Below, piece after piece: positions 14,159-32,000 of a stretch of 32,000 bases of DNA. Position numbers and translations under genes: made by a program. The notes under the pieces are model-generated. The model did not search any database. It was not told where the DNA came from and saw nothing but the letters and a program-made list of their open reading frames with translations. How positions within the stretch are numbered: the first letter of the stretch is position 1; every line of letters begins with the position of its first letter. The stretch covers positions 3,630,001-3,662,000 of the forward strand of contig NZ_CP021983.2 of the NCBI RefSeq assembly GCF_002075285.3, read 5' to 3'. This stretch comes from Halomicronema hongdechloris C2206 (GTDB taxonomy: Bacteria > Cyanobacteriota > Cyanobacteriia > Phormidesmidales > Phormidesmidaceae).

Positions 14159-14184
14159 GCCTAGTCCGCCAAGGTGGAGATAAG

Positions 14185-14233
14185 AGGGCAAAAAGTGAAA
14201 AGGGAAATTCTGAAAATGCAGTCTTTTTGCCCT
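14185..14233. repeat. perfect 11-bp inverted repeat downstream of the first GT2 gene (hairpin/terminator candidate)
   Basis: AGGGCAAAAAG (14185-14195) and CTTTTTGCCCT (14223-14233) are exact reverse complements separated by 27 nt. Confidence 0.3.
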
Positions 14234-14320
14234 AGTTAATAGAGGCGTTATTTCTGCCTCAGAGTACTAGACTAATGGAAAAATTATCGAGTACATTATA
14301 CCAATAGTCGGAGCCTATCC

Positions 14321-15817: not shown

Positions 15818-15840
15818 GATAATTGCTGAAGATTAACGCC

Positions 15841-16758
15841 ATGGATAATTATCCTTTCGTTTCAGTGATCATTCCAGTATTTAATGATCAAGAGCGTCTC
15901 AAGCTTTGTTTAGATGCTTTATGTCAACAGACATATGAGCGAACTCGCCATGAGATCATCGTAGTGGATAACGGATCAGAAGACTATGGAAAAGTCCAAC
16001 ACATTGTCGAAGGCTTTGAACAAGCAACTGTAGTCCAAGAGTTGTTTCCGAGTTCTTATGCTGCTCGCAACAAAGGGATTTTACTAGCGAAAGGTGATAT
16101 TATTGCATTTACTGATTCAGATTGTATCCCCGATATTCATTGGCTAGAAAAAGGTGTAAAACACTTAACCAGTCAATCAGACTGTGGCATGGTAGTAGGT
16201 CGTATTGAAGTCTTCTTCAGAGATCCTCAAAAGCCAACATTGGTTGAACTTTATCAGAGTCTAACTGCCTTCCCTCAAGAGCAACACCTCAAAGAATTTA
16301 ATGGGGGTGCTACCGCTAATTTGATTACGTTTAGGGAGGTTATTTATCGGGTTGGAAACTTCAATAGCTCTCTCAAGTCTTTTGGGGATTTTGAGTGGGG
16401 AAGACGAGTGTTTATGGCAGGATACAAACAGGTATATGCGGATGATGTCATAGTGAAGCATCCTGCCCGTAGTTCTTGGCAAGAATTGCAAAAACGCACG
16501 ATTCGAGCATCAGGTGGAGTTTATGACTATTTTCTAGGGAAGCAAACATCTTGGCTGGGCAAGAATAAAATGTTCATGAGATTATTACTAAATGATCTGG
16601 TCCCACCTGTTCATTTTACTATCAGCACTTTTAGAAACCAACAGCTGAAAACTTTTTACGAAAAGCTGAATATATCATTGATTCTTCTAGTGGTTCGCTA
16701 TATTAGCGCACTTGAGAAAATTCGACTTCGATTTGGAGGTGCTTCAATACGGGCATAG
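15841..16758 (+). CDS. family 2 glycosyltransferase
   Basis: FVSVIIPVFNDQERLKLCLDAL, IIVVDNGSED and FTDSDC (DxD). I prefer the ATG at 15841 over the TTG at 15823 in the ORF track. Confidence 0.85.
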   Translation: MDNYPFVSVIIPVFNDQERLKLCLDALCQQTYERTRHEIIVVDNGSEDYGKVQHIVEGFEQATVVQELFPSSYAARNKGILLAKGDIIAFTDSDCIPDIHWLEKGVKHLTSQSDCGMVVGRIEVFFRDPQKPTLVELYQSLTAFPQEQHLKEFNGGATANLITFREVIYRVGNFNSSLKSFGDFEWGRRVFMAGYKQVYADDVIVKHPARSSWQELQKRTIRASGGVYDYFLGKQTSWLGKNKMFMRLLLNDLVPPVHFTISTFRNQQLKTFYEKLNISLILLVVRYISALEKIRLRFGGASIRA

Positions 16759-16879
16759 TCTTATCATAGTGGCCAAAGATGACAGCCTGTGGCAGCTTCT
16801 TATCCATGAAATCGACAAAGTAATATGGCAATTAAATTGCCATCAATTTATAGCTTACAAGAGCAGGTAGGTCAGGCTA

Positions 16880-17923
16880 ATGCTAACAACAGATATGCCA
16901 AAAGTAACTCTAGTCGTTGTCCCAAGAGAACGCTTTAGCTGTACAGCTCGATCACTTGAAAGCATCTTTGAACATACGAAGGTTCCCTTTAAACTAATTT
17001 ATGTCGATGGAAACTCACCCACACCAATTCGAGAATACTTGGAGAAAAAAGCACATGAAAGACAATTTGAGTTAATTCGAACTGACAACTATCTACATCC
17101 AAATGCAGCTCGAAACATTGGCTTATACAGAGTTCAAACAGAATACTTAGTCTTTATAGACAATGATGTCGTTGTCTCAGATGGATGGCTAGATGCTATG
17201 GTGAGCTGTGCCGATAAGACTGGTGCAGATGTAGTTGGTCCTCTAGTTTGCCAAAATGAGCCCATACACACAGAAATTCATTGTACAGGAGGAGAAGCTC
17301 GCATTATTATCGATAAATTTGGCAAGCGGAGGCTCCGTGAGAAACTCTACAATCAGGGCAAGAAAGTTATTGACTTGATATCTCGCCTTCAACGTATTCA
17401 GACTGAAATCGCTGAGTTTCACTGTGTTTTAATTCGTAAAACTATCTTTGAACGTATCGGTTATTTGGATGAGGCGTTGTTGAACACCAGAGAGCATGTC
17501 GATTTTTGCCTACTCGTGACTGAGGCTGGTGGTAGCATTTATTTTGAACCTAGCTCGATTGTCACCTACGTTCCTGGACCACCTTTAAAGCTGAGTGACA
17601 TACCCTTTTATATGCTGCGCTGGAGTGATGACTGGGAACTTAAGAGTTTGCATCATATCTACCGTAAGTGGGATGTCGTAGAGGACGGCTATTTTAAAAC
17701 AAGATATCGTCGCCGTGGTTGGCGTAGATATGTAACACTATTTCATCCACTCTCTAAGAAACTCCTTTTTAACTGGAATTGGGGTAGTCATTTCCTGGCT
17801 AGGGTATTGGGCAAGTTAGATCATTTATTCCTTAATCCTTATCTGACAGCTGTTTATGCAAGACGTCAACGATCCGCTCCAAAGACAATAGTTTCGGCTG
17901 GGTCTTCTGAGTCAATGATTTAG
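16880..17923 (+). CDS. GT-A fold (GT2-like) glycosyltransferase
   Basis: VTLVVVPRERFSCTARSLESI, LIYVDGNSP and FIDNDVVVSDGWL (DxD). It is more divergent than the other GT2 genes. Confidence 0.7.
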   Translation: MLTTDMPKVTLVVVPRERFSCTARSLESIFEHTKVPFKLIYVDGNSPTPIREYLEKKAHERQFELIRTDNYLHPNAARNIGLYRVQTEYLVFIDNDVVVSDGWLDAMVSCADKTGADVVGPLVCQNEPIHTEIHCTGGEARIIIDKFGKRRLREKLYNQGKKVIDLISRLQRIQTEIAEFHCVLIRKTIFERIGYLDEALLNTREHVDFCLLVTEAGGSIYFEPSSIVTYVPGPPLKLSDIPFYMLRWSDDWELKSLHHIYRKWDVVEDGYFKTRYRRRGWRRYVTLFHPLSKKLLFNWNWGSHFLARVLGKLDHLFLNPYLTAVYARRQRSAPKTIVSAGSSESMI

Positions 17924-17950
17924 TTTGACTGGAGAGCATTAGATATTATT

Positions 17951-18805
17951 ATGACTTCTTCACAGTCAGAGTGGATTGATGGCCAGCTTAAGCTTAGTGC
18001 TATTTCCCAAACTAATCTGCAACTTTGGCAACAGTTGCAGAGGGCAGGGTATAGTAGCCACGATCTAAAACTAATAAACCGTGCCTATCAAGCGGCCATG
18101 ATTTTATTTTCAGGTCGCTTTCGGGCATCAGGAAAATCGTTTATTGCCCACCTTGTTGGCACAGCAAGTATTCTAGGTCATCTAGGTGTATCAGCACCAT
18201 TGGTGGCTGCAGGCTTATTGCATGCAGCCTATGACTTTGGGGATTTTGGTGGTTGGAAGCGTTCGGGTATTACAGCGACTAAGCGAATGTGGTTGTGTCG
18301 TGAAGTTGGCAGTCAAGTCGAGCAATATATCACTGCGTATTCAGCTTTAGCCTGGAACTCAAATACAATTCCTACTATCAAAAGGTGCTCATACAAGTGG
18401 GAGAAAATTGAACGAAGTGCTCTTTTAATACGTCTGGCTAACGAGTTAGAGGAATACCTTGATTTAGGAATACTTTATTGTGGCAAAAAAAGCCAAATAT
18501 ATAACCAGCATCAGTCTGATCTCATTGTTGAACTTGCCAGGGCTCTTAATTTTCCTAGATTAGCTCAGGCATTAGCCTCCGCGCAGCAGGTTGTAGAATA
18601 TTCTCAGGTATTACCGGAGCTAGTGAATCCAACAAATGCTTCTGGTTCAGCCCTAATTACACCCTATTCGTGTTGTCGAACTCTCATTACCAAACTAACT
18701 CAAAATCGTATTATCCGATTATTTGAACAAATATTCAATAGACCCTATTTTCAAAGAGATCTCAGTTGCAATCCTTTACTTAAACACAGACGTAAGGCAA
18801 TATGA
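17951..18805 (+). CDS. hypothetical protein with degenerate RelA/SpoT-type HD (HD_4-like) motif pattern
   Basis: aa 42-100 read INRAYQAAMILFSGRFRASGKSFIAHLVGTASILGHLGVSAPLVAAGLLHAAYDFGDF. This parallels the SpoT hydrolase pattern A..A..H.GQ.R.SG.PYI.HP..VA.IL..D..AALLHD..ED, with HD replaced by HA. The stop overlaps the flippase start (ATGA at 18802-18805). Confidence 0.5.
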   Translation: MTSSQSEWIDGQLKLSAISQTNLQLWQQLQRAGYSSHDLKLINRAYQAAMILFSGRFRASGKSFIAHLVGTASILGHLGVSAPLVAAGLLHAAYDFGDFGGWKRSGITATKRMWLCREVGSQVEQYITAYSALAWNSNTIPTIKRCSYKWEKIERSALLIRLANELEEYLDLGILYCGKKSQIYNQHQSDLIVELARALNFPRLAQALASAQQVVEYSQVLPELVNPTNASGSALITPYSCCRTLITKLTQNRIIRLFEQIFNRPYFQRDLSCNPLLKHRRKAI

Positions 18806-20265
18806 ACTTTAAAGCCCAGGTTATTAAGGGGGCAATTTGGTCACTGATTCAGGGTTGGGGAACACAGTTTGGATCGCTAGCTGTGTTCTTTTTGTTAGCA
18901 CGGTTACTAACACCAGAGGCTTTTGGATTAGTCGCACTTGCGAATGTTTTTCTAGCATTCATGCAGGTTTTTTTAAGCCAAGGTTTTGCCGATGCTATCG
19001 TGCAGAAAGAAGGACTTAAATCTGAGCATCTCGATGCTGCATTTTGGACTAGCTTAGCTCTAGGAAGTGCATTAATGGTGATCGGATTAGCAACTTCAAC
19101 ACAGATAGCTAATCTCTTTCAAAAACCACAACTTGCTTCGGTGCTTTCCTGGTTTTCTATCATATTACTAATCAATTCTCTTTGTAGTGTTCACCAAGCC
19201 CAACTTCAGCGCCAGTTCGCTTTCAGAGCCCTCGCTTTGCGTCACTTAGTTGGCATAGTTGGTGGTGGCATCATTGGCATTATTATGGCCTTGAACGGTC
19301 TAGGAGTCTGGGCCCTAGTTGGTCAGCAATTTACTCAGGAATTAGTTGGTGTAATTGTTCTCTGGAATGCCGTGGATTGGAAGCCCAAGTTGAATTTTTC
19401 TGTTGAACATTGGCAAGAACTACTAAACTTTGGATTAAATCAGTTAGGATTTGGGTTGTTAGGCTTTATCAATAACAGAGCTGATGATTTCTTGATTGGC
19501 TTCTATCTTGGTCCTACGAGTTTGGGTTACTACAGCCTAGCCTATCGCATCTTGTCAGCAATGACTAATTTACTGATCAATAGTAGTAATCAGGTAGCGC
19601 TTCCCACATTCTCACGTCTACAGAATAATTTGGAACGCTGCCGAATTGCTTTCTGTAGTGCCACTAAATTGTCTAGCGCATTGGCTTTTCCTACTTTCTG
19701 TTGTATAGCACTACTCTCTCCTGAATTTATTACATTACTTTTTGGGGAGCAATGGCTGCCATCTGTACCCGTTTTACAAGTGTTATCTATCGTGGGAGCA
19801 TTACGATCAGTTACATACTTTAAGTCTTCAGTTTTTTTGGCTATGGGTAAACCAAGCTGGAAGCTACGGCTCGGCGTAGTTAGTTCAACATTGAATATTG
19901 TCGGTTTCTTTGTGGCTGTACGCTGGGGAATTGTTGCTGTATCCATCGCTTACTTAGTCCGTGCTTGTATTATGTTTCCTATTAGTCAGTTAGCTGTCAG
20001 TAAATTAATCAGTGTTTCCTTTAACAAATATTTAAAGCAATTTATCCCGTCAGTTGTCAGCACCTTAGTTATGATATTTTGTATGACTTTAATATCTAAC
20101 TTGACCGAGGATCTATCTAATCTAGCCATAAAAATACTATGTGTATCATCAGCAGGATTGACAGCATACATTCTAGCGCTTTATTGTTTTGAGCCAAAGT
20201 TCTTCGAGCGAATCCGGGGTATCGGGATGCTCTTACTCAAACGAGTTCAACAAGAGCAAAATTAA
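18802..20265 (+). CDS. Wzx-type (MOP/PST family) polysaccharide flippase
   Basis: 487 aa with about 12-14 TM helices. The N-terminus is typical of polysaccharide biosynthesis proteins (KGAIWSLIQGWGTQFGSLAVFFLLARLLTPEAFGLVALA). Confidence 0.85.
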   Translation: MNFKAQVIKGAIWSLIQGWGTQFGSLAVFFLLARLLTPEAFGLVALANVFLAFMQVFLSQGFADAIVQKEGLKSEHLDAAFWTSLALGSALMVIGLATSTQIANLFQKPQLASVLSWFSIILLINSLCSVHQAQLQRQFAFRALALRHLVGIVGGGIIGIIMALNGLGVWALVGQQFTQELVGVIVLWNAVDWKPKLNFSVEHWQELLNFGLNQLGFGLLGFINNRADDFLIGFYLGPTSLGYYSLAYRILSAMTNLLINSSNQVALPTFSRLQNNLERCRIAFCSATKLSSALAFPTFCCIALLSPEFITLLFGEQWLPSVPVLQVLSIVGALRSVTYFKSSVFLAMGKPSWKLRLGVVSSTLNIVGFFVAVRWGIVAVSIAYLVRACIMFPISQLAVSKLISVSFNKYLKQFIPSVVSTLVMIFCMTLISNLTEDLSNLAIKILCVSSAGLTAYILALYCFEPKFFERIRGIGMLLLKRVQQEQN

Positions 20266-24844: not shown

Positions 24845-25678
24845 CTACAGTTGTGCCTTGGCTCTGACCGTGTCGTAGAGGGTTTCCATGGCTTCAATAA
24901 AGGAGTTGTCCCGTTCCCAGAAGGCCGGGAAATCTCCCTGTTTCTTAACGGCGATGCCAGATACCGGGCTAGGATAGCAAGGGTCCATGGTTTGCGGTAG
25001 CCGCTTGGCGCCTTGCCAAAAATCTCGCAGATTGGTGCAACTGTCGGCTGCCGTGGTACGGAGCGGTGGGTAGTAGGACCCCATCGGTCGGGGAGGCTTT
25101 TTCTCAAGCTGGAGTTCGGCCGACAGCGCTTGCCCTAAGGGAGATTTCGCCAGTTCCTGGAGTAGGTTTTGCCGCGACAGCCCTCGCAGTTCAAACAACA
25201 GGAAGGGATCGCGGTCGAGCTCAGCCGCCACTAGATAGTAGACCCCGGCGATGTGCTTGCAGGGGTTGCTCCAGTCAGGGCAGGAGCAGTGGGCATCGAA
25301 GTCCTTGCGGCTGGCGGGCAGCAGGTGCAGATTCAGTTGCTTGAAGGTGTCTTCGATGGTGTCAGGAATTTCGTTCAGCAGCAGGCGGGAGATCAGGCTG
25401 GCTTTGGCGGCAATGTGTGCGATCGCATCGGACCACTGAGCCGCGCTGATCGGCTGAAACTCGATCGTCGTCGTGTAGAGGGGTTCTTCGTACACCCCAA
25501 AGTAGGGATTCACAGACCCACGCACCTGGGCGGAAACAATGCCGTCTTTAATGCCGAAGCTTTTGACCTTTTTGCCCCTGGCATAGGATCGTCCCCGACT
25601 GAGGCGCCCGGAGTCGGTCAGTTCCTCCATGGCTGCGATAAACTTCTGTCCCCACCAGGTGCGGCTAAACTGGCTCAT
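24845..25678 (-). CDS. SWIM zinc-finger protein
   Basis: 277 aa. N-terminal WWGQKFIAAME..GRLSRGRSYARGKKV and the SWIM CxCxnCxH signature CSCPDWSNPCKHIAGVYYL. Confidence 0.85.
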   Translation of the reverse strand: MSQFSRTWWGQKFIAAMEELTDSGRLSRGRSYARGKKVKSFGIKDGIVSAQVRGSVNPYFGVYEEPLYTTTIEFQPISAAQWSDAIAHIAAKASLISRLLLNEIPDTIEDTFKQLNLHLLPASRKDFDAHCSCPDWSNPCKHIAGVYYLVAAELDRDPFLLFELRGLSRQNLLQELAKSPLGQALSAELQLEKKPPRPMGSYYPPLRTTAADSCTNLRDFWQGAKRLPQTMDPCYPSPVSGIAVKKQGDFPAFWERDNSFIEAMETLYDTVRAKAQL

Positions 25679-25755
25679 CAGTCATACTCCGCGAACGGTT
25701 TCAAAGCATCGAGATGCAAGCAAAATGGTTGTTCCATCAATATTAGGAGACCCAA

Positions 25756-26376
25756 TCACCTTGTTTCGCCCAGGGCTTGCCGAAATTCTACGACCGCATC
25801 TAGCGGTTCCGGGTATTGAACGTAGGTAGCCAGCAGGGTGAGGTCCAAATCAGGGAGAAATTGGCTGCGATCGCACCGCTTGTACCCTTCCTCTAGCAGG
25901 TGATAGACCCTAAATTGCTGACCTTGCCAGAACCATACCTCTGCCACACTCAAGCCCTGATAAACGTCGAGCTTATTGATGCTGCCACTGGTGTGCACCA
26001 CTTCGATGGCAATGTCTGGCAATTCCTTATTGGTACCAATGCAAAACGACACATCCGGCTCGGCTCCGCGTCGTTTAGCTTCAACTGTAAAGGTGGTGGA
26101 CCCAAGACCATAAAAGCGGGTACGGGTTTCTTCGAAGTAGGCCCTCAGCAAGCCCGCGATGTTATCTTTCAAAACTTCGTGCCGACGACCGGGCATGGTA
26201 ATCTCTAGTGTCCCATCCAGATAGTGAACCCTCAGTCCGGGGAAATCGTCTCCCAGGTCAGAGAGCAGCGCTTCGTAAGCCTGCCAGCTGACCCCCGTAA
26301 TGGTGTATTGCTGATCGGTCTGGTCAGACAGTAGTTCGGGATGGGCGTTCAGTTTTTCTATAAGTAGGGGATTCAT
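25756..26376 (-). CDS. Uma2-family (DUF820) PD-(D/E)xK endonuclease
   Basis: SWQAYEALLSDLGD..RVHYLDGTLEITMPGRRHE..LL, PDVSF and PDIAIEVVHTSG match the Uma2 pattern common in cyanobacteria. Confidence 0.85.
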   Translation of the reverse strand: MNPLLIEKLNAHPELLSDQTDQQYTITGVSWQAYEALLSDLGDDFPGLRVHYLDGTLEITMPGRRHEVLKDNIAGLLRAYFEETRTRFYGLGSTTFTVEAKRRGAEPDVSFCIGTNKELPDIAIEVVHTSGSINKLDVYQGLSVAEVWFWQGQQFRVYHLLEEGYKRCDRSQFLPDLDLTLLATYVQYPEPLDAVVEFRQALGETR

Positions 26377-26594
26377 GGGAAAAAGCTGGGGAGAAGGATT
26401 GCAGAAAGCCTAGCATCATTAAGAATCTCTACTCTTTGACCATTGCCCGTTTGGTTAGTATAGTAGCCAGCCAAAATTGCTTGCTCGGTCGTTGTCAGGG
26501 CAGCGGCATAATTCGCCAGTCGTTCGTACAGGGACTCAATTTCTCTGACGTCAGCATCAATGTTCGCCTTGAGCAGGGCTGCCTGTGGATTCAT
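26373..26594 (-). CDS. short hypothetical protein (possible truncated partner of the upstream nucleotidyltransferase)
   Basis: 73 aa. It overlaps the NTase 3' end by 38 nt, and its stop overlaps the Uma2 start (ATGA at 26373-26376). A helical N-terminus (ALLKANIDADVREIESLYERLANYA) is followed by low-complexity sequence. No R-x4-H-x-Y HEPN motif is present. Confidence 0.35.
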   Translation of the reverse strand: MNPQAALLKANIDADVREIESLYERLANYAAALTTTEQAILAGYYTNQTGNGQRVEILNDARLSAILLPSFFP

Positions 26595-26952
26595 AGATCA
26601 GTTCTCCGGTCTGGCGAACGATATCGGCAAAGTGGCAGGGCTGGTTAATTTCTCGCAGGTCAATCGCCTGGTTGGGGTAGGCAGTTTCTAAATCACGCCA
26701 GAGGGCAAAGTAAGTGGCGGCATCAGTGCCCGCTACGGCAATGTCAATGTCGGAATGGTGGCGAAATTGTCCGGGCTGGGTAATGGAGCCAAACAGATAG
26801 ATCTGAGTGATTGCAGGATAGGCCGGAACAACCTCAAGAATAGCTGCAACGATCGCTTCATGGACCTGCGATCGCAACGCTTCCCGCGCTGCCCGCTGAT
26901 TGGCGGTTCGTTGGCGGAAGTTGTCGCGACATTGCTGCAGGTCAATTGCCAT
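26557..26952 (-). CDS. MNT-type nucleotidyltransferase-domain protein (type VII TA antitoxin-like)
   Basis: Pol-beta superfamily motif IYLFGSITQPGQFRHHSDIDIAV (GS..DxD). About 131 aa from the ATG at 26952 (MAIDLQQ). Confidence 0.8.
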   Translation of the reverse strand: MAIDLQQCRDNFRQRTANQRAAREALRSQVHEAIVAAILEVVPAYPAITQIYLFGSITQPGQFRHHSDIDIAVAGTDAATYFALWRDLETAYPNQAIDLREINQPCHFADIVRQTGELIYESTGSPAQGEH

Positions 26953-27087
26953 CGGTAGACAGTGCAAACTTTTTCCCATTATTAGGAAGCGGTGCAATGC
27001 AGCGGTTTTGGCATCAGCGGTGGGTAAGTCAGAGGATTTGTACTGAGCTGAAGAAGCCTGAAAGGGTGTTGCCTACCCGACCGAAGT

Positions 27088-27543
27088 TTAGATTGCAGGG
27101 AGAAAATCGGGATTCAGGGTTTCTGCAGGGGTAAAGGGAGCATTCTCGGGAAAGACCTCGATAGACAGCCCGGTTTCGACGGCAGCTTTTCTGCGGGCGC
27201 GGGCGTAGCAGTCTGCAAAGACAGACTCATAGTAAGGTTTGAGGCTGGGGCTGTCACGAAAGAGGCGTTCGATGCGATCGCGCTGCTCCAGAATGGTAAA
27301 TCGCCAGCTGTTGGAGCGTCGTTCTGGCTGATACTGGTACTTCAGCAGGTGCCTCAAGAGCACTTCCAGATTGCTTTCTAATGCCCGTTTCTCGCTCCGC
27401 CCCATGTCTTCAAGCTCTTCAATCAAGCTGGGAATATCGATCTGTTCTAGCTTGCCTTGCCGCAGCAGATCTACCGTGGCTTCAAGCCAGAGTACATAGT
27501 CCTGATCGTACAGACCGGAGGGTTGCTGCAAGGGTGCAGTCAT
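27088..27543 (-). CDS. DUF29-family protein
   Basis: YDQDYVLWLEATVDLLRQGKLEQIDIPSLIEELEDMGRSEKRALESNLEVLLRHLLKYQYQPERRSNSWRFTILEQR matches the DUF29 consensus along its whole length. Confidence 0.85.
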   Translation of the reverse strand: MTAPLQQPSGLYDQDYVLWLEATVDLLRQGKLEQIDIPSLIEELEDMGRSEKRALESNLEVLLRHLLKYQYQPERRSNSWRFTILEQRDRIERLFRDSPSLKPYYESVFADCYARARRKAAVETGLSIEVFPENAPFTPAETLNPDFLPAI

Positions 27544-27725
27544 GGGAAGGAGCCTCACAGGTTAAGCGCATCAGGTTTGATCTTATCGGATTCGCCTGAC
27601 TGCGATTCTGATGTGCGATCGCTCAGGATGCATTCAGTTAACGGTGAAGTTGTGCGGCGGTAGATAACCTTGAACTCCCACCGATAACCTCTATACCGCC
27701 CGCACCAACGAAGGGTTAGGCGGTT

Positions 27726-28106
27726 TCAACGACTATACGGTTGCTCCAGACTTAAGCCCGGAATGATTCGGTAGTGCTTCACGTTAAAAGTACAGAGAGT
27801 TGCATTGCGCCCAACGGCACAAGCCGCAATCAAGGCATCAATTAGGCCGACCTGATGGGACAGATGATAGGCGGTGAAATCAGACAGAGCACGGGCGCAA
27901 TCCGTCTCGGTAGGCCAAACGATTTGCAACGGAGCCACCATTTGTAGAACTGTACGAACCTGCTGCTTGTTCTGAGCGTCCTGAATCAATTCCATTACGA
28001 CAAACCCAGGAATGCTCGGTAGTTTTGAGACAGAGGCAAACCACGCGAGTGCAGGCGCGTAACTCCGCTGGATGTCAATCATGACATCAGTATCAACGAG
28101 GTACAT
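27726..28106 (-). CDS. vapC: PIN-domain ribonuclease toxin (VapC-type)
   Basis: 126 aa with the acidic PIN residues in place (MYLVDTDV, VVMELIQD, GLIDALIAA, TFNVKHY). It starts 7 nt after the antitoxin ORF. Confidence 0.9.
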   Translation of the reverse strand: MYLVDTDVMIDIQRSYAPALAWFASVSKLPSIPGFVVMELIQDAQNKQQVRTVLQMVAPLQIVWPTETDCARALSDFTAYHLSHQVGLIDALIAACAVGRNATLCTFNVKHYRIIPGLSLEQPYSR

Positions 28107-28112
28107 TCTTCC

Positions 28113-28373
28113 CTAAGCCCGCTCTCGATTTTCGGCTTGGTTACGCAATATGCGTGCGTATTCCTGACTATCCGTAATGTCAGGTCGGGAACCTACTACT
28201 CCAATGCTTTCCCAGTAAGCCACGAGTTCTAATCCTGTTTGAGGAGGATGTTGGAGAAAAGGGCGGAAGGCAAGGACGCGCAGAATATACTCTGCTAAAG
28301 GGAGCTTAAGCTCTGATGCCTCATTGGCTAGTTCCCGCTCTAGATCCGAAGGGAGATCTAATGTGACGGTCAT
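28113..28373 (-). CDS. antitoxin partner of the PIN toxin
   Basis: 86 aa, sitting directly upstream of vapC. The N-terminus MTVTLDLPSDLERELANEASELKLPLAEYILRVL is typical of small cyanobacterial VapB-like antitoxins. Confidence 0.75.
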   Translation of the reverse strand: MTVTLDLPSDLERELANEASELKLPLAEYILRVLAFRPFLQHPPQTGLELVAYWESIGVVGSRPDITDSQEYARILRNQAENRERA

Positions 28374-28387
28374 AACAGTGCTCTCCG

Positions 28388-28573
28388 CTAATAGACGACG
28401 CCGTGATTTTTTTCAGCACAACCTTGGCAGACATCATCATTATGCATCCAACCGCAGGGCTGACGCTGTTGACACTCTTGACAAAATCGAAAGTATTGTT
28501 TGTCTTGCAAAATTTCTTGGACTTTGGAAGCAATTGCTTCCGGCAAAGATTCGGATGGCAACACAGTGACCAC
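28388..28573 (-). CDS. Cys-rich mini-protein (zinc-ribbon-like); may be the 3' part of a frameshifted gene starting at 28692
   Basis: 61 aa from a GTG start. Contains CQEC-x5-C and CQGC. The overlapping 123-aa ORF (28321..28692) looks protein-like only in its first 40 or so codons. Confidence 0.35.
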   Translation of the reverse strand: MVTVLPSESLPEAIASKVQEILQDKQYFRFCQECQQRQPCGWMHNDDVCQGCAEKNHGVVY

Positions 28574-28723
28574 TTGCCAATCAGATGCTGGCTCATGTGG
28601 ATGCGGCCAAGATATCTTACAGACGGAAATTCTTTTTCGCTCTCAAGCGAGTTAATTTTTATGAATCTAGAAATAAGTTCTGTCTCATTCATCTGTTTGC
28701 CAACCTTAAGTTTCTGTTGAAAA

Positions 28724-29518
28724 TCAACTTTCGATCGCTCCTAAGCCAGACAGTGATTCAAAAATCCTTGTCCTCCAGTATTCAAGCTTGTTGGCATCAG
28801 TAGGAGATTTACCTATTAGCCTTTTCCATGCTCCATTTGCTGCTCTGCCAGGATGAAGAAACCTGAGGTGAGGAACTTCTATATTGACAGCAGATAAGCT
28901 GTTAGCGGCTTCATTACCCCATGTTATTAATGCAACAGGCTTTACGGCCTGGAATTCTAATTCCAAAATACGAAAGAATCTCTCTTGATCTATTCGCGGC
29001 AACTTGCATCTTGAATAGGGACTGGTAGGGTCGCAAACCCATACTTTAAATATGTCGGTCAAATACACTCTATAGCCCAAGCTGAGCAATACGAAGACCA
29101 TTTCAAAATATCGCTTCGTATGTTTTATACGGCATTCCTTCGAATGTAATGCATAAGGAGTTCCAACAATAATATTCTCAAAATCATGATCATTTTTGGG
29201 ATCTTGTCCAAGAATGACGACAGTTGGTTTATTGATGTCCCCATTGTCTAACTCAAGAATGCTTGGTAAGTCAACAGCAATTACAGGAGATTGTGCATAT
29301 ATTGCTCGAAAACCTTCATCCATACTTGTGAAAAAAGCTCGATCAACAAAAATTGGAGAAGGATGATCATTGTCAAAGTCATCGTTCAATCTTGTGTAAA
29401 GCTCAGTAAGCTCAGTCTTTGATATAGTGAAAAGAGAGCTAAGAATATCAGAGATAACTTCAAACCCTTTTGAGGAGAACTGAGAGAAGAGAAGATTTTC
29501 AGCTACTTGAGATGCCAT
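28724..29518 (-). CDS. divergent uracil-DNA-glycosylase-superfamily (UDG-fold) protein with an N-terminal extension of about 100 aa
   Basis: The ordered motifs match the UDG layout. TVVILGQDPKND (aa 99-110) corresponds to family-1 GQDPYH. GTPYALH and GYRVYLTDIFKVWVCDP are present. KPVALITWGNEAANSL corresponds to LLWG..A. FLHPGRAANG (aa 221-230) corresponds to HPSPLS. The gene is low-GC relative to its neighbours. Confidence 0.55.
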   Translation of the reverse strand: MASQVAENLLFSQFSSKGFEVISDILSSLFTISKTELTELYTRLNDDFDNDHPSPIFVDRAFFTSMDEGFRAIYAQSPVIAVDLPSILELDNGDINKPTVVILGQDPKNDHDFENIIVGTPYALHSKECRIKHTKRYFEMVFVLLSLGYRVYLTDIFKVWVCDPTSPYSRCKLPRIDQERFFRILELEFQAVKPVALITWGNEAANSLSAVNIEVPHLRFLHPGRAANGAWKRLIGKSPTDANKLEYWRTRIFESLSGLGAIES

Positions 29519-29546
29519 ACTTAGCTTTCATGTGTCTAGGAATTCC

Positions 29547-29576
29547 ATTATATGAGGCAAGTTGAACGCCTAACAA
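29547..29576 (-). promoter_or_regulatory. sigma70-type promoter candidate for the UDG-like gene
   Basis: Minus strand reads TTGTTA (29576..29571), an 18-nt spacer, then a perfect TATAAT (29552..29547). The -10 element lies about 29 nt upstream of the ATG at 29518. Confidence 0.35.
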
Positions 29577-29587
29577 AGTTATTAGAC

Positions 29588-29710
29588 AGAAAGTTTCCGC
29601 ATATTCCCCCTCTTAGGGTGGATCGCAAGAAACTTTCTGCATATCTACCTAAAAAAGTTTCCGCATATTATCCAGATTTGGTTGGATAGCCGGAAAGTTT
29701 CCGCATATTT
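29588..29710. repeat. four iteron-like direct repeats, consensus RAAAGTTTCCGCATATT
   Basis: Copies are aligned at AAGTTTCCGCATATT and start at 29591, 29631 (degenerate: AACTTTCTGCATATC), 29655 and 29695. Start-to-start spacing is 40/24/40 nt. The core GAAAGTTTC is a near-palindrome. The array lies between the SNF2 stop (29764) and the promoter of the UDG-like gene. Confidence 0.8.
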
Positions 29711-29763
29711 TAGCTGTAGTACATACAGGCTATCGTGTGGTAGAGATACCTGAATTCACCTCG

Positions 29764-32000
29764 TTATTCCATAATGGCGCGTTTATTGAGGGAAATCAGT
29801 TCCCGGAAAGCATCGTTATCCAGCTCCGTCAGCCAGGATTCATCGGAGCCGACGATCGCACCAGCCAGCTTTTTCTTGTCTTCGATCATCTGGTCGACGC
29901 GTTCCTCCAGGGTACCGATGGCCACAAACTTATGCACAAACACATTCTTCTTCTGGCCGATGCGGAAGGCGCGGTCGGTGGCCTGATCCTCCACCGAGGG
30001 GTTCCACCAGCGGTCGAAGTGAAAGACGCGGTTAGCTTTAGTGAGGGTGATGCCCACACCCCCCGCTTTCAGGGACAGCACAAAGGCCGAGGGTTCCGTC
30101 TCCGGATCCTGAAACTGGGTGATCATGGCTTCCCGCTTTTTCCGGGAGGTGCCGCCGTGTAAGTAGTAGGTGTTGAAGTGGCAGGTGTGGCGCAGGTACT
30201 TTTCCAGGGCGGCTCCCAGCTCGGTGAACTGGGTAAAAATCAGCAGGCTTTCCTCCTCAGCCATGGCTTCTTCCACCATCTCGGTGAGGCGGGTGAGCTT
30301 GTGGGAGCGGGCCGCCGTAAAGTCGCTACCGTCTTGTAGAAACTGCATGGGATGGTTGCAAACCTGCTTCAGCTTCATTAAAGTGCTGAGGATCAAGCCC
30401 TTACGTTGGATACCTTCGCTGCCCTGCAACTGCTCTTCCACGTCCTTCACCACGGCTTCGTAGAGGGAGGCCTGTTCTTTGGTTAAGTTGCAGAAGAGTT
30501 TTTGCTCCACCTTATCGGGCAGGTCTTTGATGATGGACTGATCCGTCTTCACCCGCCGCAGAATGAAGGGTTCCACTAGCTTCTTGAGAGTGGCAGACTG
30601 CCGGGGGCTATTGTCTTTCTGGATCGGCAGCTCAAAACCGCGACGAAACTGGGCCTGGGTACCCAAATAGCCCGGATTCAAAAAGTTGAAGATAGACCAC
30701 AGGTCCATGAGTCGATTTTCGATGGGGGTGCCGGTGAGGGCCAGCCGATGGGGTGAGGAGAATTTAAGGATGGCCTTGGTCAACGCTGCCTTGGGATTTT
30801 TGATGTTCTGGGCCTCGTCCAGCACAATCCGGTGCCACTCGATGCCGTTGAACAGCTTGGCATCCTTACGGGCCAAGGCGAAGGAGGTAATCACGATGTC
30901 GTGGTCCCGGCAGAGTTGTTTGAAGTGCTTGGATTCCTTGGCCCGATCGCTACCATGATGCACCACCGCCCGAATCTCCGGGGCAAACTTGTGGATTTCG
31001 TGAAACCAGTTGCCGATGACAGAAGTAGGAGCAACTAGCAGGGTGGGAGGGATTCTTTGCCCCTGCTCCGCCTGAGCCTGTTCCCGCTCCTGCAGCAGGC
31101 GGGCGATCACCTGCACGGTTTTCCCCAATCCCATATCATCGGCCAGACAGCCGTTGAGACCCAACTGCTCCAGGTATTGCAACCAGGAAACGCCCCGCTT
31201 CTGGTATTCCCGTAGGTTGCCCTGGAAGGTTTCAGGATCGTCCACCGGCTGCAGCTGACCCTTGTTACTGAGCTTCTCCAGCATCTCGGCCAGGGCATCG
31301 TTGCGATCGCACTCGACCTCGAGCTCGTCGCCATCTCCCTCCGCCGTCAGCTTGATGAAGTCCATCAGGCTCATTTCCGGATTCTCCGCCTGCTGGGTCT
31401 GCCAAAACTCCAGCATCTGCCGCATTTTGTCCTGGTCCAGCTCCATCCACTGGCCGCGAAACTTAACCAAGGGGGTCTTGGCATTGACTAACTGGTTCCA
31501 CTCCTGCTCGGTCACCCGTTCCCCGCCAATGGCCAGCTCGTACTGGTACTGCACCAGGGTCTCGAAGGAAAAATAGCTTTTGGCTTTGGTATTGCCCCCG
31601 AGGGATTTGCCCTGGGCCTTGAGGCGGACCTTGGCGCGCTTGCGTCCCTTGGGAGTCCACCAGGCGGGGACGATCACCTTGTACCCGGCGTTCTCCAGCA
31701 CCCAGGCCGATTCCTTCAGGAAATTGAAGGCGGCGTCCAGAGCCAGAGTAATGCCGACGGGCTGGTCCGTCTCCAGTCCCTGCCACAGGTCAGGATAGAT
31801 GCGGGCGGCATAGCCCAGGTTCAGCAGTAGGTTTTGCTCGAACTCACCCCCCAGCTGAGCTTTCACCTGGTTCTGCTGTTTGGGGCGCATGCGCCAGTAG
31901 TCCTCCAGGGAGACTTTCAGAGACGGATCATGCTTGGGGGCCACCTGAAACTGGAGTTGCCAGGGTTCCTCGGGCTTAACCGGGTCTTGCAGATGAAAAT
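29764..32000 (-). CDS. SNF2-family (SWI2/SNF2, RapA/HepA-like) helicase/ATPase, C-terminal 745 or so codons (N-terminus beyond the right edge)
   Basis: SNF2-associated N-terminal region, then motif I LADDMGLGKT, DEAQNIKN (motif II), LALTGTPIEN, and the helicase-C region (LIFTQF..GGVGITLT..DRWWNP..QATDRAFRIGQ). The frame stays open upstream of the track's GTG at 31944 to position 32000 (..HLQDPVKPEEPWQLQFQ). Confidence 0.9.
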   Translation of the reverse strand, partial: FHLQDPVKPEEPWQLQFQVAPKHDPSLKVSLEDYWRMRPKQQNQVKAQLGGEFEQNLLLNLGYAARIYPDLWQGLETDQPVGITLALDAAFNFLKESAWVLENAGYKVIVPAWWTPKGRKRAKVRLKAQGKSLGGNTKAKSYFSFETLVQYQYELAIGGERVTEQEWNQLVNAKTPLVKFRGQWMELDQDKMRQMLEFWQTQQAENPEMSLMDFIKLTAEGDGDELEVECDRNDALAEMLEKLSNKGQLQPVDDPETFQGNLREYQKRGVSWLQYLEQLGLNGCLADDMGLGKTVQVIARLLQEREQAQAEQGQRIPPTLLVAPTSVIGNWFHEIHKFAPEIRAVVHHGSDRAKESKHFKQLCRDHDIVITSFALARKDAKLFNGIEWHRIVLDEAQNIKNPKAALTKAILKFSSPHRLALTGTPIENRLMDLWSIFNFLNPGYLGTQAQFRRGFELPIQKDNSPRQSATLKKLVEPFILRRVKTDQSIIKDLPDKVEQKLFCNLTKEQASLYEAVVKDVEEQLQGSEGIQRKGLILSTLMKLKQVCNHPMQFLQDGSDFTAARSHKLTRLTEMVEEAMAEEESLLIFTQFTELGAALEKYLRHTCHFNTYYLHGGTSRKKREAMITQFQDPETEPSAFVLSLKAGGVGITLTKANRVFHFDRWWNPSVEDQATDRAFRIGQKKNVFVHKFVAIGTLEERVDQMIEDKKKLAGAIVGSDESWLTELDNDAFRELISLNKRAIME

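What the first reader, a model, noticed from the sequence alone, without database searches (positions are those of the whole stretch)
28724..29518. Orphan, highly divergent UDG-superfamily protein carried on a low-GC insert inside a toxin-antitoxin/defence-like islet
The 264-aa product keeps the ordered landmarks of the uracil-DNA-glycosylase fold:
- LGQDP, with the family-1 catalytic Asp position;
- a Y/F-containing G-x-P-Y segment;
- a hydrophobic strand ending in D-P;
- ITWG..A;
- a C-terminal HP motif, the family-1 His position.
Everything else is unrecognisable, and it has an N-terminal extension of about 100 aa with no motif I know. A hand-counted line (29101-29160) is about 35% GC against about 60-65% in flanking native genes, and there is no full HIP1 site in the gene, so it looks imported. 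It is co-oriented with VapBC, DUF29, MNT and Uma2 genes. UDG-fold enzymes that excise modified phage bases are an established defence principle (the Brig1 type). By analogy this could be a glycosylase-based immunity or mobile-element maintenance gene rather than a repair enzyme, but that functional reading is speculative.
Basis: partly seen in the sequence, partly recalled or inferred. Interest (0 to 1): 0.75.

Follow-up and report, generated by a model that had tools for sequence, protein, structure and literature searches.

The report
Acquired UDG-fold glycosylase with Asp-for-Asn pocket
The gene is real and encodes a DNA base-removing enzyme of the uracil-DNA-glycosylase fold from a widespread but unstudied family whose uracil-reading residue is always changed, and it arrived by horizontal transfer; an anti-phage role is plausible but not shown.

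Summary
The 264-aa ORF at 28724-29518(-) is real. The window is from Halomicronema hongdechloris C2206.

- **Fold:** it is a UDG-superfamily protein. The AF2 model has pLDDT 93.8, and all top-50 Foldseek PDB hits are UDGs. Fifty of 56 homologues hit Pfam UDG, and hhalign to family-4 TthUDGa gives 94.5%.
- **Not an orphan:** there are 112 clusters at 90% identity in cyanobacteria and 709 clusters at 50% identity overall.
- **Conserved positions (242 members):** The residue aligned with the uracil-reading Asn (TthUDGa N80 / EcoUNG N123) is Asp155 in 242/242. The family-1 Tyr gate is absent and there is no Fe-S cluster.
- **Known families:** it fits none that could be tested: family 1, 3 or 4, UdgX, BdiUng or Brig1. 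Brig2 could not be tested.
- **Imported:** gene GC3 is 0.325 against 0.71-0.76 in the flanking genes. An 869-bp cassette is 94% identical to a Limnothrix contig with unrelated flanks. It lies in a 4.08-kb islet that splits a conserved SNF2-SWIM gene pair. Family genes are GC-poorer than their flanks in 40/40 loci.
- **Selection:** dN/dS is 0.26.
- **Context:** there is no conserved partner gene, no phage or plasmid copies, and only mild toxin-antitoxin enrichment nearby.

Best reading: an accessory monofunctional glycosylase with non-uracil specificity. A defence role is inferred, not demonstrated.

The parts
28724..29518 (-). Gene for a 264-aa UDG-superfamily glycosylase of an uncharacterised clade. 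Key codons: D83 29272-29270, D106 29203-29201, Y122 29155-29153, D155 29056-29054, K158 29047-29045, H222 28855-28853.
   Evidence: ORF. AF2 pLDDT 93.8. Foldseek top 50 are all UDGs. hhalign 94.5% to TthUDGa. Column conservation in 242 members. dN/dS 0.26.
28706..29574 (.). 869-bp cassette (ORF plus 56 nt upstream and 18 nt downstream) shared at 94.1% nucleotide identity with a Limnothrix sp. RL_2_0 contig. The flanks are unrelated.
   Evidence: Single blastn HSP. The Limnothrix neighbours are HNH, Abi_alpha and IS110 genes.
29547..29576 (-). Promoter-like site TTGTTA-18-TATAAT (10/12 matches), 29 nt upstream of the ATG. The -10 hexamer lies inside the shared cassette.
   Evidence: Consensus scan. 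This is a pattern match only.
28400..29800 (.). Low-GC tract (0.32-0.47 per 100 nt) that contains the cassette and both of its intergenic flanks.
29590..29708 (-). Four copies of ATATGCGGAAACTTT (three exact), organised as two 55-nt units with a palindromic core GGAAACTTTCC. They lie between the SNF2 stop codon and the cassette edge, and outside the segment shared with Limnothrix.
   Evidence: Not found in any other fetched locus.
25681..29761 (-). 4.08-kb accessory islet inserted between the conserved SNF2/DUF3670 helicase and SWIM genes. It holds the glycosylase, a 61-aa CxxC ORF (28388-28573), VapB (28113-28373), VapC/PIN (27726-28106), DUF29 (27088-27558), MNT/Polbeta (26557-26997), a 73-aa ORF (26373-26594) and Uma2 (25756-26376).
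   Evidence: Pfam. In Nodosilinea sp. P-1105 the SWIM gene follows SNF2 after ~190 bp. blastn homology stops at 29762 and resumes at 25680.
29764..31944 (-). Native SNF2/DUF3670 helicase (C-terminal 726 aa as an ORF in the window). It is 100% identical to the H. hongdechloris C2206 protein. GC3 is 0.76.
24845..25678 (-). Native SWIM zinc-finger protein, the usual downstream partner of the helicase. GC3 is 0.71.

Best explanation
The gene encodes a stand-alone, monofunctional DNA glycosylase of the UDG superfamily. It belongs to an uncharacterised clade of proteins of about 258 aa.

**Clade signature**
- a family-specific N-terminal region of about 95 aa containing an invariant D83-x-P85;
- motif A [GA]-[QE]-D106-[PS];
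- a base-stacking T-P-[YF]122;
- Y-x-T-D155-x-x-K158;
- E188;
- motif B H222-P.

**Inferred mechanism, by homology.** The target base is flipped into the pocket and stacks on Tyr122. The Gln105-Asp106 doublet positions or activates the water, as in family 1. His222 stabilises the leaving base through its O2 (or an equivalent atom). Asp155 sits where every characterised uracil-specific UDG has the Asn that hydrogen-bonds N3-H and O4 of uracil. [quoted passage not shown] The family-1 Tyr gate is replaced by Lys or Leu, which leaves room for a 5-substituent. The preferred substrate is therefore probably a modified base and not plain uracil.

**Biology.** This is an accessory gene that moves horizontally as a minimal promoter-plus-ORF cassette. 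Here it landed in a toxin-antitoxin islet that splits the SNF2-SWIM pair of Halomicronema hongdechloris. It most likely surveys foreign or modified DNA as single-gene immunity of the Brig1/Brig2 kind and is not part of core base-excision repair.

**How sure each step is.** Fold, clade, residue mapping, acquisition and purifying selection are shown. Catalysis is strongly inferred. Non-uracil specificity is inferred at roughly 50%. A defence role is inferred at roughly 35%.
For: **Fold**
- The AF2 model has pLDDT 93.8 and pTM 0.91.
- All 50 best PDB Foldseek hits are UDG-superfamily enzymes: SMUG1 at E 2e-6, UdgX, family 4 and EBV UNG.
- Viral hits are UDG-like proteins and PolA-fused UDGs.
- 50/56 homologues hit PF03167, best E 1.5e-9.

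**Residue mapping**
- hhalign of the family against TthUDGa (sequence verified exact against 1ui0) gives 94.5% probability and E 7.7e-8. It aligns GQD106P with GEGP, GTPY122 with GRPF54, VYLTD155IxK with VYITN80IVK, and H222P with H155P.
- The roles of N80/N123, F54/F77, H155/H187 and the QD/EG doublet are taken from PMC5387724.

**Conservation in 242 members at 20-93% identity**
- D155, K158 and E188: 242/242. D83 and P85: 241/242. D106: 232/242. H222: 238/242. Aromatic residue at 122: 241/242.

**Asn-to-Asp precedent**
- In saturation mutagenesis of hUNG N204, only Asp gave cytosine excision. EcUNG N123D and HHV1 UNG N147D behave the same way, and Y147A opens the pocket (PMC11289083).
- Brig1 uses an acidic residue (E147) in place of the Asn and a stacking Tyr (PMC11078745).

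**Acquisition**
- GC3 is 0.325 against 0.71-0.76 in the flanking genes.
- The 869-bp cassette is 94% identical to a copy in a different genome and context.
- The islet splits a conserved gene pair.
- The gene is GC-poorer than its flanks in 40/40 loci, staying at 0.33-0.43 whether the host is at 0.36 or 0.59.

**The gene is functional**
- dN/dS is 0.26, with no substitutions in residues 72-165.

**Accessory character**
- Genomic contexts vary.
- The scan found 44 species genomes out of 185,579.
Against: - No biochemical data exist for any member, and the substrate is unknown.
- The defence role lacks direct support. PADLOC gives no hit. No defence neighbour is conserved, and many copies sit among housekeeping genes such as COX, NDH/ChpXY-Kai and RlmL.
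- TA/Uma2 enrichment near the gene is small, at 9 against 2 visible hits per 150 ORFs. It was judged from top-25 family lists only.
- The Nostoc subclade is syntenic, meaning stably and vertically inherited. That pattern also fits a maintenance enzyme.
- UNG N204D mutants retain some uracil activity (my recollection of Kavli et al. 1996, not checked here), so Asp155 does not exclude uracil.
- I could not inspect the model coordinates. Pocket geometry and the role of D83 are therefore unverified.
- Asp106 is less conserved (96%) than Asp155, so the assignment of the catalytic residues could be wrong.
Confidence: 0.5

Rival explanations
1. It is a divergent but ordinary repair enzyme. It would serve as a back-up uracil or deaminated/oxidised-base glycosylase (U, hmU, xanthine, hypoxanthine) feeding base-excision repair, in the way SMUG1, SMUG2, family 5 or BdiUng do.
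For: - It has the UDG fold and a family-1-like QD doublet and His.
- NCBI names several members 'uracil-DNA glycosylase'.
- Many copies lie among housekeeping genes, and the Nostoc copies are syntenic.
- It has its own promoter and is under purifying selection.
- Broad-specificity UDG families that lack the Tyr gate exist, for example BdiUng (PMC5449639).
Against: - The uracil-reading Asn is Asp in 242/242 members. Every characterised uracil-acting family cited here keeps Asn at this position.
- It was found in only 44 species genomes, in variable contexts.
- It has foreign base composition in 40/40 loci.
- There is a recent inter-genus transfer at 94% nucleotide identity.
- No NCBIfam repair-enzyme model comes near its threshold. 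The best hits have E 1.7e-6 against cut-offs above 160 bits.
Confidence: 0.3
2. It is a maintenance or selfish gene of a small mobile element. Examples would be a glycosylase that biases recombination or repair to favour its own spread, or one that acts as a toxin-like addiction module within the TA islet.
For: - The shared cassette is minimal and has sharp edges.
- The low GC is family-wide.
- It sits beside HNH, IS110 and Abi_alpha genes in Limnothrix and HNH_2 in Calothrix.
- TA and Uma2 genes are the commonest neighbours.
Against: - No recombinase, transposase or terminal repeat travels with the gene.
- No antitoxin-like partner is conserved.
- It is absent from phage, plasmid and viral-contig collections.
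- HNH neighbours occur in only 2 of about 45 loci.
Confidence: 0.1
3. It is a catalytically inactive UDG-fold protein that only binds a particular base or lesion. It would act as a reader or sensor, comparable in spirit to the uracil-DNA-binding UdgX.
For: - About 4% of members lack Asp106 (they have S, A, G or E) but keep Asp155.
- Foldseek ranks UdgX among the best matches.
Against: - Asp106 is kept in 96% of members and His222 in 98%.
- The UdgX-specific KRRIH loop with the covalent His is not present in the alignment.
- The protein is compact and single-domain, with no effector domain or partner gene.
Confidence: 0.07

Closest known systems
Family 4 UDG (UDGa; T. thermophilus TTHA0718, PDB 1UI0)
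   Same: - It is the best profile match: hhalign 94.5% probability over 119 columns.
- It shares G-x-P-[FY] stacking, the Y-x-T-[N/D]-x-x-K strand and the H-P motif B.
- Foldseek TM-scores reach 0.54.
   Different: - There is no 4Fe-4S cluster; no Cys column exceeds 31%.
- Motif A is Q/E-D-P, not E-G-P-G.
- The base-reading Asn80 is Asp.
- It has an extra conserved N-terminal region of about 95 aa with D-x-P.
Family 1 UNG (E. coli Ung / human UNG)
   Same: - It has the GQDP 'QD doublet' motif A and H-P-S motif B.
- The only PDB sequence hits and the commonest NCBIfam hits are UNGs, though they are weak.
   Different: - NCBIfam ung scores are about 12-16 bits against cut-offs of 162-186.
- hhalign to EcoUng gives only 7.9%.
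- The Tyr66/Tyr147 gate is absent (Lys or Leu instead).
- Asn123/Asn204 is Asp.
- There is no HPSPLS Leu-intercalation loop.
Brig1 (anti-T-even defence glycosylase, UDG fold; PMC11078745)
   Same: - It works like Brig1 in outline. Both are single-gene UDG-fold proteins of about 260 aa with an N-terminal extension, a stacking Tyr (Y121 against Y122) and an acidic residue in place of the base-reading Asn (E147 against D155).
- Both are horizontally mobile and sit near TA genes.
   Different: - There is no detectable sequence relationship (hhalign 0.3%, BLASTP not significant).
- Brig1 has GLNPG and N-F-E motifs and lacks the QD doublet and the HP motif.
- Brig1 homologues are often in BREX/Pgl defence islands, and this family is not.
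Brig2 (integron UDG-like defence enzyme against 5-(2-aminoethyl)uridine phages; bioRxiv 10.1101/2025.10.29.685425)
   Same: - It has the UDG fold.
- Its homologues lie preferentially in A/T-rich, recently acquired regions.
   Different: - Brig2 homologues are mainly Pseudomonadota and Bacillota, with 1 cyanobacterial hit.
SMUG1 (family 3) and UdgX
   Same: They are the top Foldseek hits: SMUG1 at E 2e-6 and UdgX at about 3e-5.
   Different: - Identity is 11-16% and TM-scores are 0.32-0.48.
- SMUG1 has GMNPG/HPSPRN and Asn; UdgX has GEQPG, an Fe-S cluster and the covalent-His loop. None of these features is present here.
BdiUng-type UDG (Blr0248; PMC5449639)
   Same: Its motif A is GQDPA, without the Tyr gate, and it has broad specificity.
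   Different: - BdiUng has YVMVN (Asn kept) and lacks motif B (it has a protrusion instead).
- Its motif A is at residue ~55, so it has no long N-terminal region.
- It is not among the top 50 Foldseek hits.

Membership tests
UDG superfamily (Pfam PF03167 / clan) | alpha/beta/alpha fold with a four-stranded parallel sheet typical of UDGs | tested here: met
   The AF2 model has pLDDT 93.8. All 50 best PDB Foldseek hits are UDG enzymes, with probability 1.0 and E down to 2e-6.
UDG superfamily (Pfam PF03167 / clan) | Profile match to PF03167 | tested here: met
   The window protein is sub-threshold (21.3 bits against 24.3). However, 50/56 homologues match, best E 1.5e-9, and hhalign to a family-4 member gives 94.5%.
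UDG superfamily (Pfam PF03167 / clan) | Motif A after beta1, an aromatic stacking residue, and a motif B His | tested here: met
   D106 96%, Y/F/W122 99.6% and H222 98% of 242 members.
Family 1 UNG | GQDPY(H) motif A with the Tyr steric gate | tested here: not met
   GQDP is present, but the next residue is Lys (Leu in most of the family), never Tyr.
Family 1 UNG | Asn (EcoUNG N123 / hUNG N204) reading uracil N3/O4 | tested here: not met
   Asp155 in 242/242 members.
Family 1 UNG | HPSPLS motif B with the intercalating Leu; match to the NCBIfam/TIGR00628 equivalog | tested here: not met
   The sequence is HPGRAANG (family consensus HPSGAANG). TIGR00628 scores 12.5 bits against a cut-off of 185.75.
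Family 4 UDGa | Four Cys ligands of a 4Fe-4S cluster | tested here: not met
   No Cys column exceeds 31% frequency.
Family 4 UDGa | GE(A/G)PG motif A and the Y-x-T-N strand | tested here: not met
   Motif A is [GA][QE]D[PS], and the strand ends in Asp.
UdgX | KRRIH loop with the His that forms a covalent bond to the abasic site | tested here: not met
   No such insertion or motif follows the Y-x-T-D-x-x-K strand in the alignments.
SMUG1 (family 3) | GMNPG motif A and HPSPRN motif B | tested here: not met
   The motifs differ. The structural match is only TM 0.32-0.43 at 11-16% identity.
Brig1 family | Sequence homology to Brig1 (the paper defined homologues by PSI-BLAST) | tested here: not met
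   hhalign probability is 0.3% and BLASTP E is 2.4. The Brig1 sequence was taken from the paper's supplement and is an OCR copy.
Brig1 family | Excision of alpha-glucosyl-5hmC and protection against T-even phages | not testable with these tools
   This needs enzyme and plaque assays.
Brig2 family | Sequence or structure homology to Brig2 | not testable with these tools
   The Brig2 sequence is not in the stored tables. Its taxonomic profile differs, with 1 cyanobacterial homologue.
Known anti-phage defence systems (PADLOC-DB v2) | Match to a defence-protein model, or a conserved defence neighbourhood | tested here: not met
   There is no PADLOC hit for the protein. No neighbour is conserved. 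PADLOC hits among neighbours are scattered singletons.

The most novel reading that the evidence does not exclude
This would be a natural 'Asp-pocket' branch of the UDG superfamily. Its enzymes would have evolved to excise an amino-bearing modified base instead of uracil. Candidate targets are a 5-substituted or N4-modified cytosine, a 7-deazaguanine derivative, or 2-aminoadenine as in cyanophage S-2L. The enzymes would serve as single-gene, horizontally traded anti-phage immunity in cyanobacteria and other phyla. That would make it the first glycosylase-type defence described for cyanobacteria, and a natural counterpart of the engineered UNG N204D cytosine glycosylases used in base editors.
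Probability: 0.25. Interest if true: 0.8.

Novelty: new variant of a known kind. Interest (0 to 1): 0.55.

Why it matters
**What the family shows.** The UDG superfamily is a textbook case of how a few pocket residues set base specificity. This family has at least 709 clusters at 50% identity, and the uracil-reading Asn is replaced by Asp in every member examined. Protein engineers introduce the same change (hUNG N204D) to turn UNG into a cytosine glycosylase.

**If the natural enzymes are modified-base specific.** They would add a third, independent UDG-fold lineage to the defence glycosylases after Brig1 and Brig2. They would extend that principle to cyanobacteria. They could also supply ready-made scaffolds for glycosylase base editors or for mapping modified bases.

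**If they prove to be ordinary uracil or lesion repair enzymes.** The family would still be a new UDG family with an unexpected pocket chemistry.

**The genomic side.** The gene keeps about 38% GC in hosts ranging from 36 to 59% GC. It moves as a bare promoter-plus-ORF cassette. This is an unusually clear example of a gene that does not ameliorate to its host's composition.

Tried and rejected
- **Brig1 membership:** rejected by hhalign and BLASTP against the published sequence.
- **Brig3:** irrelevant, because it has an AAG-like fold.
- **BdiUng-type family:** rejected on motifs and architecture.
- **Phage, plasmid or viral origin of the low-GC gene pool:** there are no relatives in 50,697 phage records, 72,556 plasmids or IMG/VR.
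- **A hidden partner gene:** all-against-all clustering of ORFs within 3 kb in 45 loci found only Nostoc-specific synteny.
- **Informative domain fusions:** the longer members (P0276, P0079, P0098 and others) carry no recognisable extra Pfam or PADLOC domain.
- **The operon of a distant Bacteroidota-like member (L056):** its neighbours are a MORN-repeat protein and unknown ORFs, with no defence hits.
- **HIP1 depletion as evidence of import:** not significant.
- **Terminal or target-site repeats around the cassette or islet:** none are convincing.
- **Technical dead ends:**
  - The broad alignment A2 was too diverse for the genome scan.
  - Exact look-ups of the window protein and of the Halomicronema helicase found no record.
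  - The profile search of the named database recovered mostly the same cyanobacterial proteins, so the taxonomy of distant members is known only for one Flavitalea protein.
  - The Lucas-Lledo 2011 UDG phylogenomics paper is not held. I therefore could not check whether this clade matches one of the two 'defined but uncharacterised' families mentioned in PMC8307549.
  - The N-terminal domain was not modelled separately.
Full report
**1. The observation**

The ORF is there: 28724-29518 on the minus strand, ATG start, 264 aa. GC falls to 0.37-0.42 across about 28400-29800, against 0.50-0.60 on either side. Gene GC is 0.394 and GC3 is 0.325. The flanking genes are lower than the 60-65% claimed:

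| Gene | GC | GC3 |
|---|---|---|
| SNF2 | 0.572 | 0.759 |
| SWIM | 0.579 | 0.705 |
| Toxin-antitoxin genes | 0.50-0.54 | not listed |

There is no GCGATCGC site in the gene. With 16 sites in 32 kb, only 0.4 are expected in 795 bp, so the absence means nothing.

**2. Is it a UDG-fold protein?**

Alone, the protein is below Pfam's threshold for PF03167 (21.3 bits against 24.3, E 2.9e-4). It has no PDB sequence hit and no PADLOC hit. It is not an orphan, however.
- The 5.8-billion-protein search returned 112 clusters. All the named ones are cyanobacterial, and most are full-length at about 258 aa.
- An exhaustive profile search found 709 representative clusters at 50% identity, 481 of them with E<=1e-10. 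Most cover the N-terminal region too.
- 50 of 56 aligned homologues hit PF03167 on their own, best E 1.5e-9.
- An AlphaFold2 model built on that alignment is confident (pLDDT 93.8, pTM 0.91).
- All 50 best Foldseek matches in the PDB are UDG-superfamily enzymes: SMUG1 at E 2e-6, then UdgX, family 4 and EBV UNG. They match at only 11-18% identity and TM 0.3-0.54.
- The viral library gives phage UDG-like proteins and polymerase-fused UDGs.

The fold assignment is secure. Closeness to any one family is not.

**3. Residue-level anatomy**

hhalign of the broad family alignment against T. thermophilus UDGa gives 94.5% probability and E 7.7e-8 over 119 columns. My recalled UDGa sequence is identical to PDB 1ui0. 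The alignment pairs:

| This family | TthUDGa |
|---|---|
| ilGQD106P | ivGEGP |
| GTPY122 | GRPF54 |
| VYLTD155IxK158 | VYITN80IVK |
| H222P | H155P |

PMC5387724 gives the roles of these residues.
- H155 (EcoUNG H187) binds O2 and stabilises the leaving group.
- F54 (EcoUNG F77) stacks on the base.
- The motif-1 doublet is 'QD' in family 1 and 'EG' in family 4.

I then aligned 242 full-length members, 20-93% identical to the window protein with a median of 33%.

| Position | Conservation |
|---|---|
| D155, K158, E188 | 242/242 |
| D83, P85, P121, G201 | 241/242 |
| T154 | 240/242 |
| Y152 | 239/242 |
| H222 | 238/242 |
| D106 | 232/242 |
| Aromatic residue at 122 | 241/242 |
| Most frequent Cys column | 31% |

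The family-1 Tyr gate (two residues after the Asp) is Lys here and Leu in most of the family. There is no Fe-S cluster.

The N-terminal ~95 residues have no Pfam match but are part of the family. They contain the near-invariant Y41 and D83-x-P85.

**4. What is known about such a pocket?**
- In saturation mutagenesis of human UNG N204, only Asp produced cytosine excision. EcUNG N123D and HHV1 UNG N147D do the same, and Y147A opens the pocket to 5-substituted bases (PMC11289083).
- Brig1 is the UDG-fold defence enzyme that removes alpha-glucosyl-5hmC. It stacks the base on Y121 and needs E147, an acidic residue where other UDGs have Asn (PMC11078745).
- By analogy, an invariant Asp155 without a Tyr gate argues for a substrate that offers H-bond donors. 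That means a cytosine-type base or, since a carboxylate is also the classical guanine N1-H/N2-H reader, a guanine-type base, probably modified. This is inference. No member has been assayed.

**5. Membership tests**

| Family | Result |
|---|---|
| Family 1 | GQD and HP present; Tyr gate, Asn and HPSPLS absent. TIGR00628 12.5 bits against 185.75. hhalign to EcoUng 7.9% (sequence verified). |
| Family 4 | Best profile match, but no Fe-S Cys, a different motif A, and Asp for Asn. |
| SMUG1, UdgX | Structural neighbours only. |
| BdiUng | Keeps Asn, lacks motif B and has no long N-terminus. |
| Brig1 | hhalign 0.3%, BLASTP not significant. |
| Brig3 | AAG-like fold, so not relevant. |
| Brig2 | Sequence unavailable; its homologues are mostly Pseudomonadota and Bacillota, with one cyanobacterial hit. 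|

NCBIfam has no model for the clade. Twelve of 56 members give far-sub-threshold hits to 'ung'. A review says nine UNG-like families are defined and seven characterised (PMC8307549). I could not obtain the source paper to see whether this clade is one of the other two.

**6. Surroundings and origin**

The helicase next door is 100% identical to the annotated protein of Halomicronema hongdechloris C2206. It is 78-95% identical across Leptolyngbyaceae and Nodosilinea, so it is a core gene.

In Nodosilinea sp. P-1105 the 277-aa SWIM gene follows the helicase after about 190 bp. In the window, blastn homology ends at the helicase stop (29762) and resumes at the SWIM start (25680). So 25681-29761 is a 4.08-kb insertion into a conserved gene pair. 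It carries the glycosylase, a 61-aa CxxC ORF, VapBC, DUF29, MNT plus a 73-aa ORF, and Uma2.

Within it, the glycosylase segment is compositionally distinct: GC3 is 0.33 against 0.43-0.61 for the other islet genes.

The closest relative (93% aa) is in Limnothrix sp. RL_2_0, next to HNH, Abi_alpha and IS110 genes. The two DNAs share a single 869-bp block at 94.1% identity, window 28706-29574. That is the ORF plus 56 nt upstream and 18 nt downstream, with nothing shared beyond it. A promoter-like TTGTTA-18-TATAAT sits at its upstream edge.

dN/dS between the two copies is 0.26. All 19 amino-acid changes lie outside residues 72-165, so the gene is maintained by selection.

**7. Family-wide genomics**
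- A scan of one genome per species (185,579 species) found 44 loci. Essentially all are cyanobacterial: Nostoc, Calothrix, Nodosilinea, Leptolyngbya, Acaryochloris, Snowella and others. One is a Pyrinomonadaceae MAG.
- The scan pattern was strict, so 44 is a lower bound.
- In all 40 loci with usable flanks the gene is GC-poorer than its surroundings. Gene GC stays at 0.33-0.43 (mean 0.383) whether the host flanks are at 0.36 or 0.59.
- No neighbour is conserved beyond a syntenic Nostoc subclade. Contexts range from housekeeping operons to mobile or accessory genes.
- Among the three nearest ORFs on each side in 25 loci, the commonest Pfam families were Uma2 (4), an ABC-transporter permease family (BPD_transp_1, 4), Phd/YefM (3), ParE (2) and XisI (2), out of 137 families.
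- A control set 6-10 kb away showed Uma2 (2) and no Phd or ParE among the listed families. This is a mild enrichment, judged only from the top-25 lists.
- PADLOC hits among neighbours were scattered singletons.
- No relatives occur in the phage, plasmid or IMG/VR collections.

**8. Interpretation**

*Shown.* It is a UDG-fold protein from a large, uncharacterised clade with a distinctive invariant signature. It is under purifying selection, was horizontally acquired, and is carried as a stand-alone cassette in an accessory islet.

*Strongly inferred.* It is an active monofunctional glycosylase, because the QD doublet, the aromatic residue and the His are conserved.

*Inferred, about 50%.* Its preferred substrate is not uracil, because of Asp155 and the missing Tyr gate.

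*Inferred, about 35%.* Its role is surveillance of foreign or modified DNA, in the manner of Brig1 and Brig2. In favour are the accessory and mobile character, the foreign composition, the pocket analogy with Brig1 and the A/T-rich location, which was also reported for Brig2 homologues. Against are the lack of any defence-island signal, the many housekeeping contexts and the vertical inheritance in Nostoc.

*Main rival, about 30%.* It is a divergent back-up repair glycosylase.

*Smaller rivals.* It is a mobile-element maintenance gene, or a non-catalytic base reader.

**9. Verdict**

'Orphan' is wrong, and the defence idea remains a hypothesis. The most interesting fact is the universal Asn-to-Asp change in a sizeable, unstudied UDG clade that keeps its own base composition across hosts. 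I rate it a new variant of a known kind, of moderate interest. A short panel of glycosylase assays and point mutants would settle it.

Noticed in passing
window 29590-29708: There are four direct copies of ATATGCGGAAACTTT (three exact, one with 2 mismatches; 0.8 expected by chance). They are arranged as two 55-nt units, and the core GGAAACTTTCC is palindromic. They lie in the low-GC spacer between the SNF2 stop and the glycosylase cassette, outside the block shared with Limnothrix, and are absent from all other fetched loci. They could be operator sites or a remnant of the insertion event.
   Followed up: partly
window ~13650-19900: This is a second, larger low-GC tract (~0.40 against a window mean of 0.52), with no HIP1 site between 11690 and 20876. 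Judged by eye from the translations, with no family scan run, its ORFs look like a surface-polysaccharide cluster: several family-2-type glycosyltransferases, a FAD-dependent oxidoreductase and a Wzx-like flippase. It is probably another acquired island.
   Followed up: partly
window 28388-28573 (-): A 61-aa ORF with two CxxC pairs (FCQEC...CQGC) lies between the glycosylase and VapB, in the GC transition zone. It has no Pfam match. It may be a real zinc-ribbon mini-protein or a chance ORF.
   Followed up: partly
window 24845-25678 and 29764-31944: The SNF2/DUF3670 helicase and the SWIM zinc-finger protein form a conserved adjacent pair in relatives, with a spacer of about 190 bp in Nodosilinea sp. 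P-1105. In this genome the spacer has become a 4.08-kb landing pad for TA-type genes. The helicase also scores strongly against the PADLOC DpdE and ZorD models (E ~1e-130), which probably only reflects the shared SNF2 core.
   Followed up: partly
window 28724-29518: The exact protein is not in the 15-billion-protein collection, although the neighbouring helicase of the same genome is named there. The gene may be unannotated, or annotated with another start, in the H. hongdechloris C2206 record.
   Followed up: no
family alignment (residues D83, P85, K158, E188 of the window protein): D83-x-P85 in the family-specific N-terminal region, K158 and E188 are more strictly conserved (241-242 of 242) than the presumed catalytic Asp106 (232/242). 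The catalytic assignment borrowed from family 1 may be incomplete, and D83 could be an active-site residue.
   Followed up: no
L039 10001-10756 (Pyrinomonadaceae MAG, Acidobacteriota): This is the only non-cyanobacterial genome in the scan. It carries a cyanobacterial-type copy (41% identity) with a GC of 0.40 against flanks of 0.50. It is either a cross-phylum transfer or a binning artefact.
   Followed up: no
L056 8216-11903 (Bacteroidota-like metagenome contig): A distant family member (26% identity) sits in a tight co-directional block with a 592-aa MORN-repeat protein and three small unknown ORFs. This differs from the stand-alone cyanobacterial genes and may be a different functional arrangement in that branch.
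   Followed up: partly
L011/L051 (Nodosilinea sp. CTOTU7353) and L046/L049 (Sphaerothrix gracilis): Two genomes carry a second copy. These second matches cover only residues ~100-257 of the query (at the locus start in L049, internal in L051), which suggests repeated acquisition or decay.
   Followed up: no
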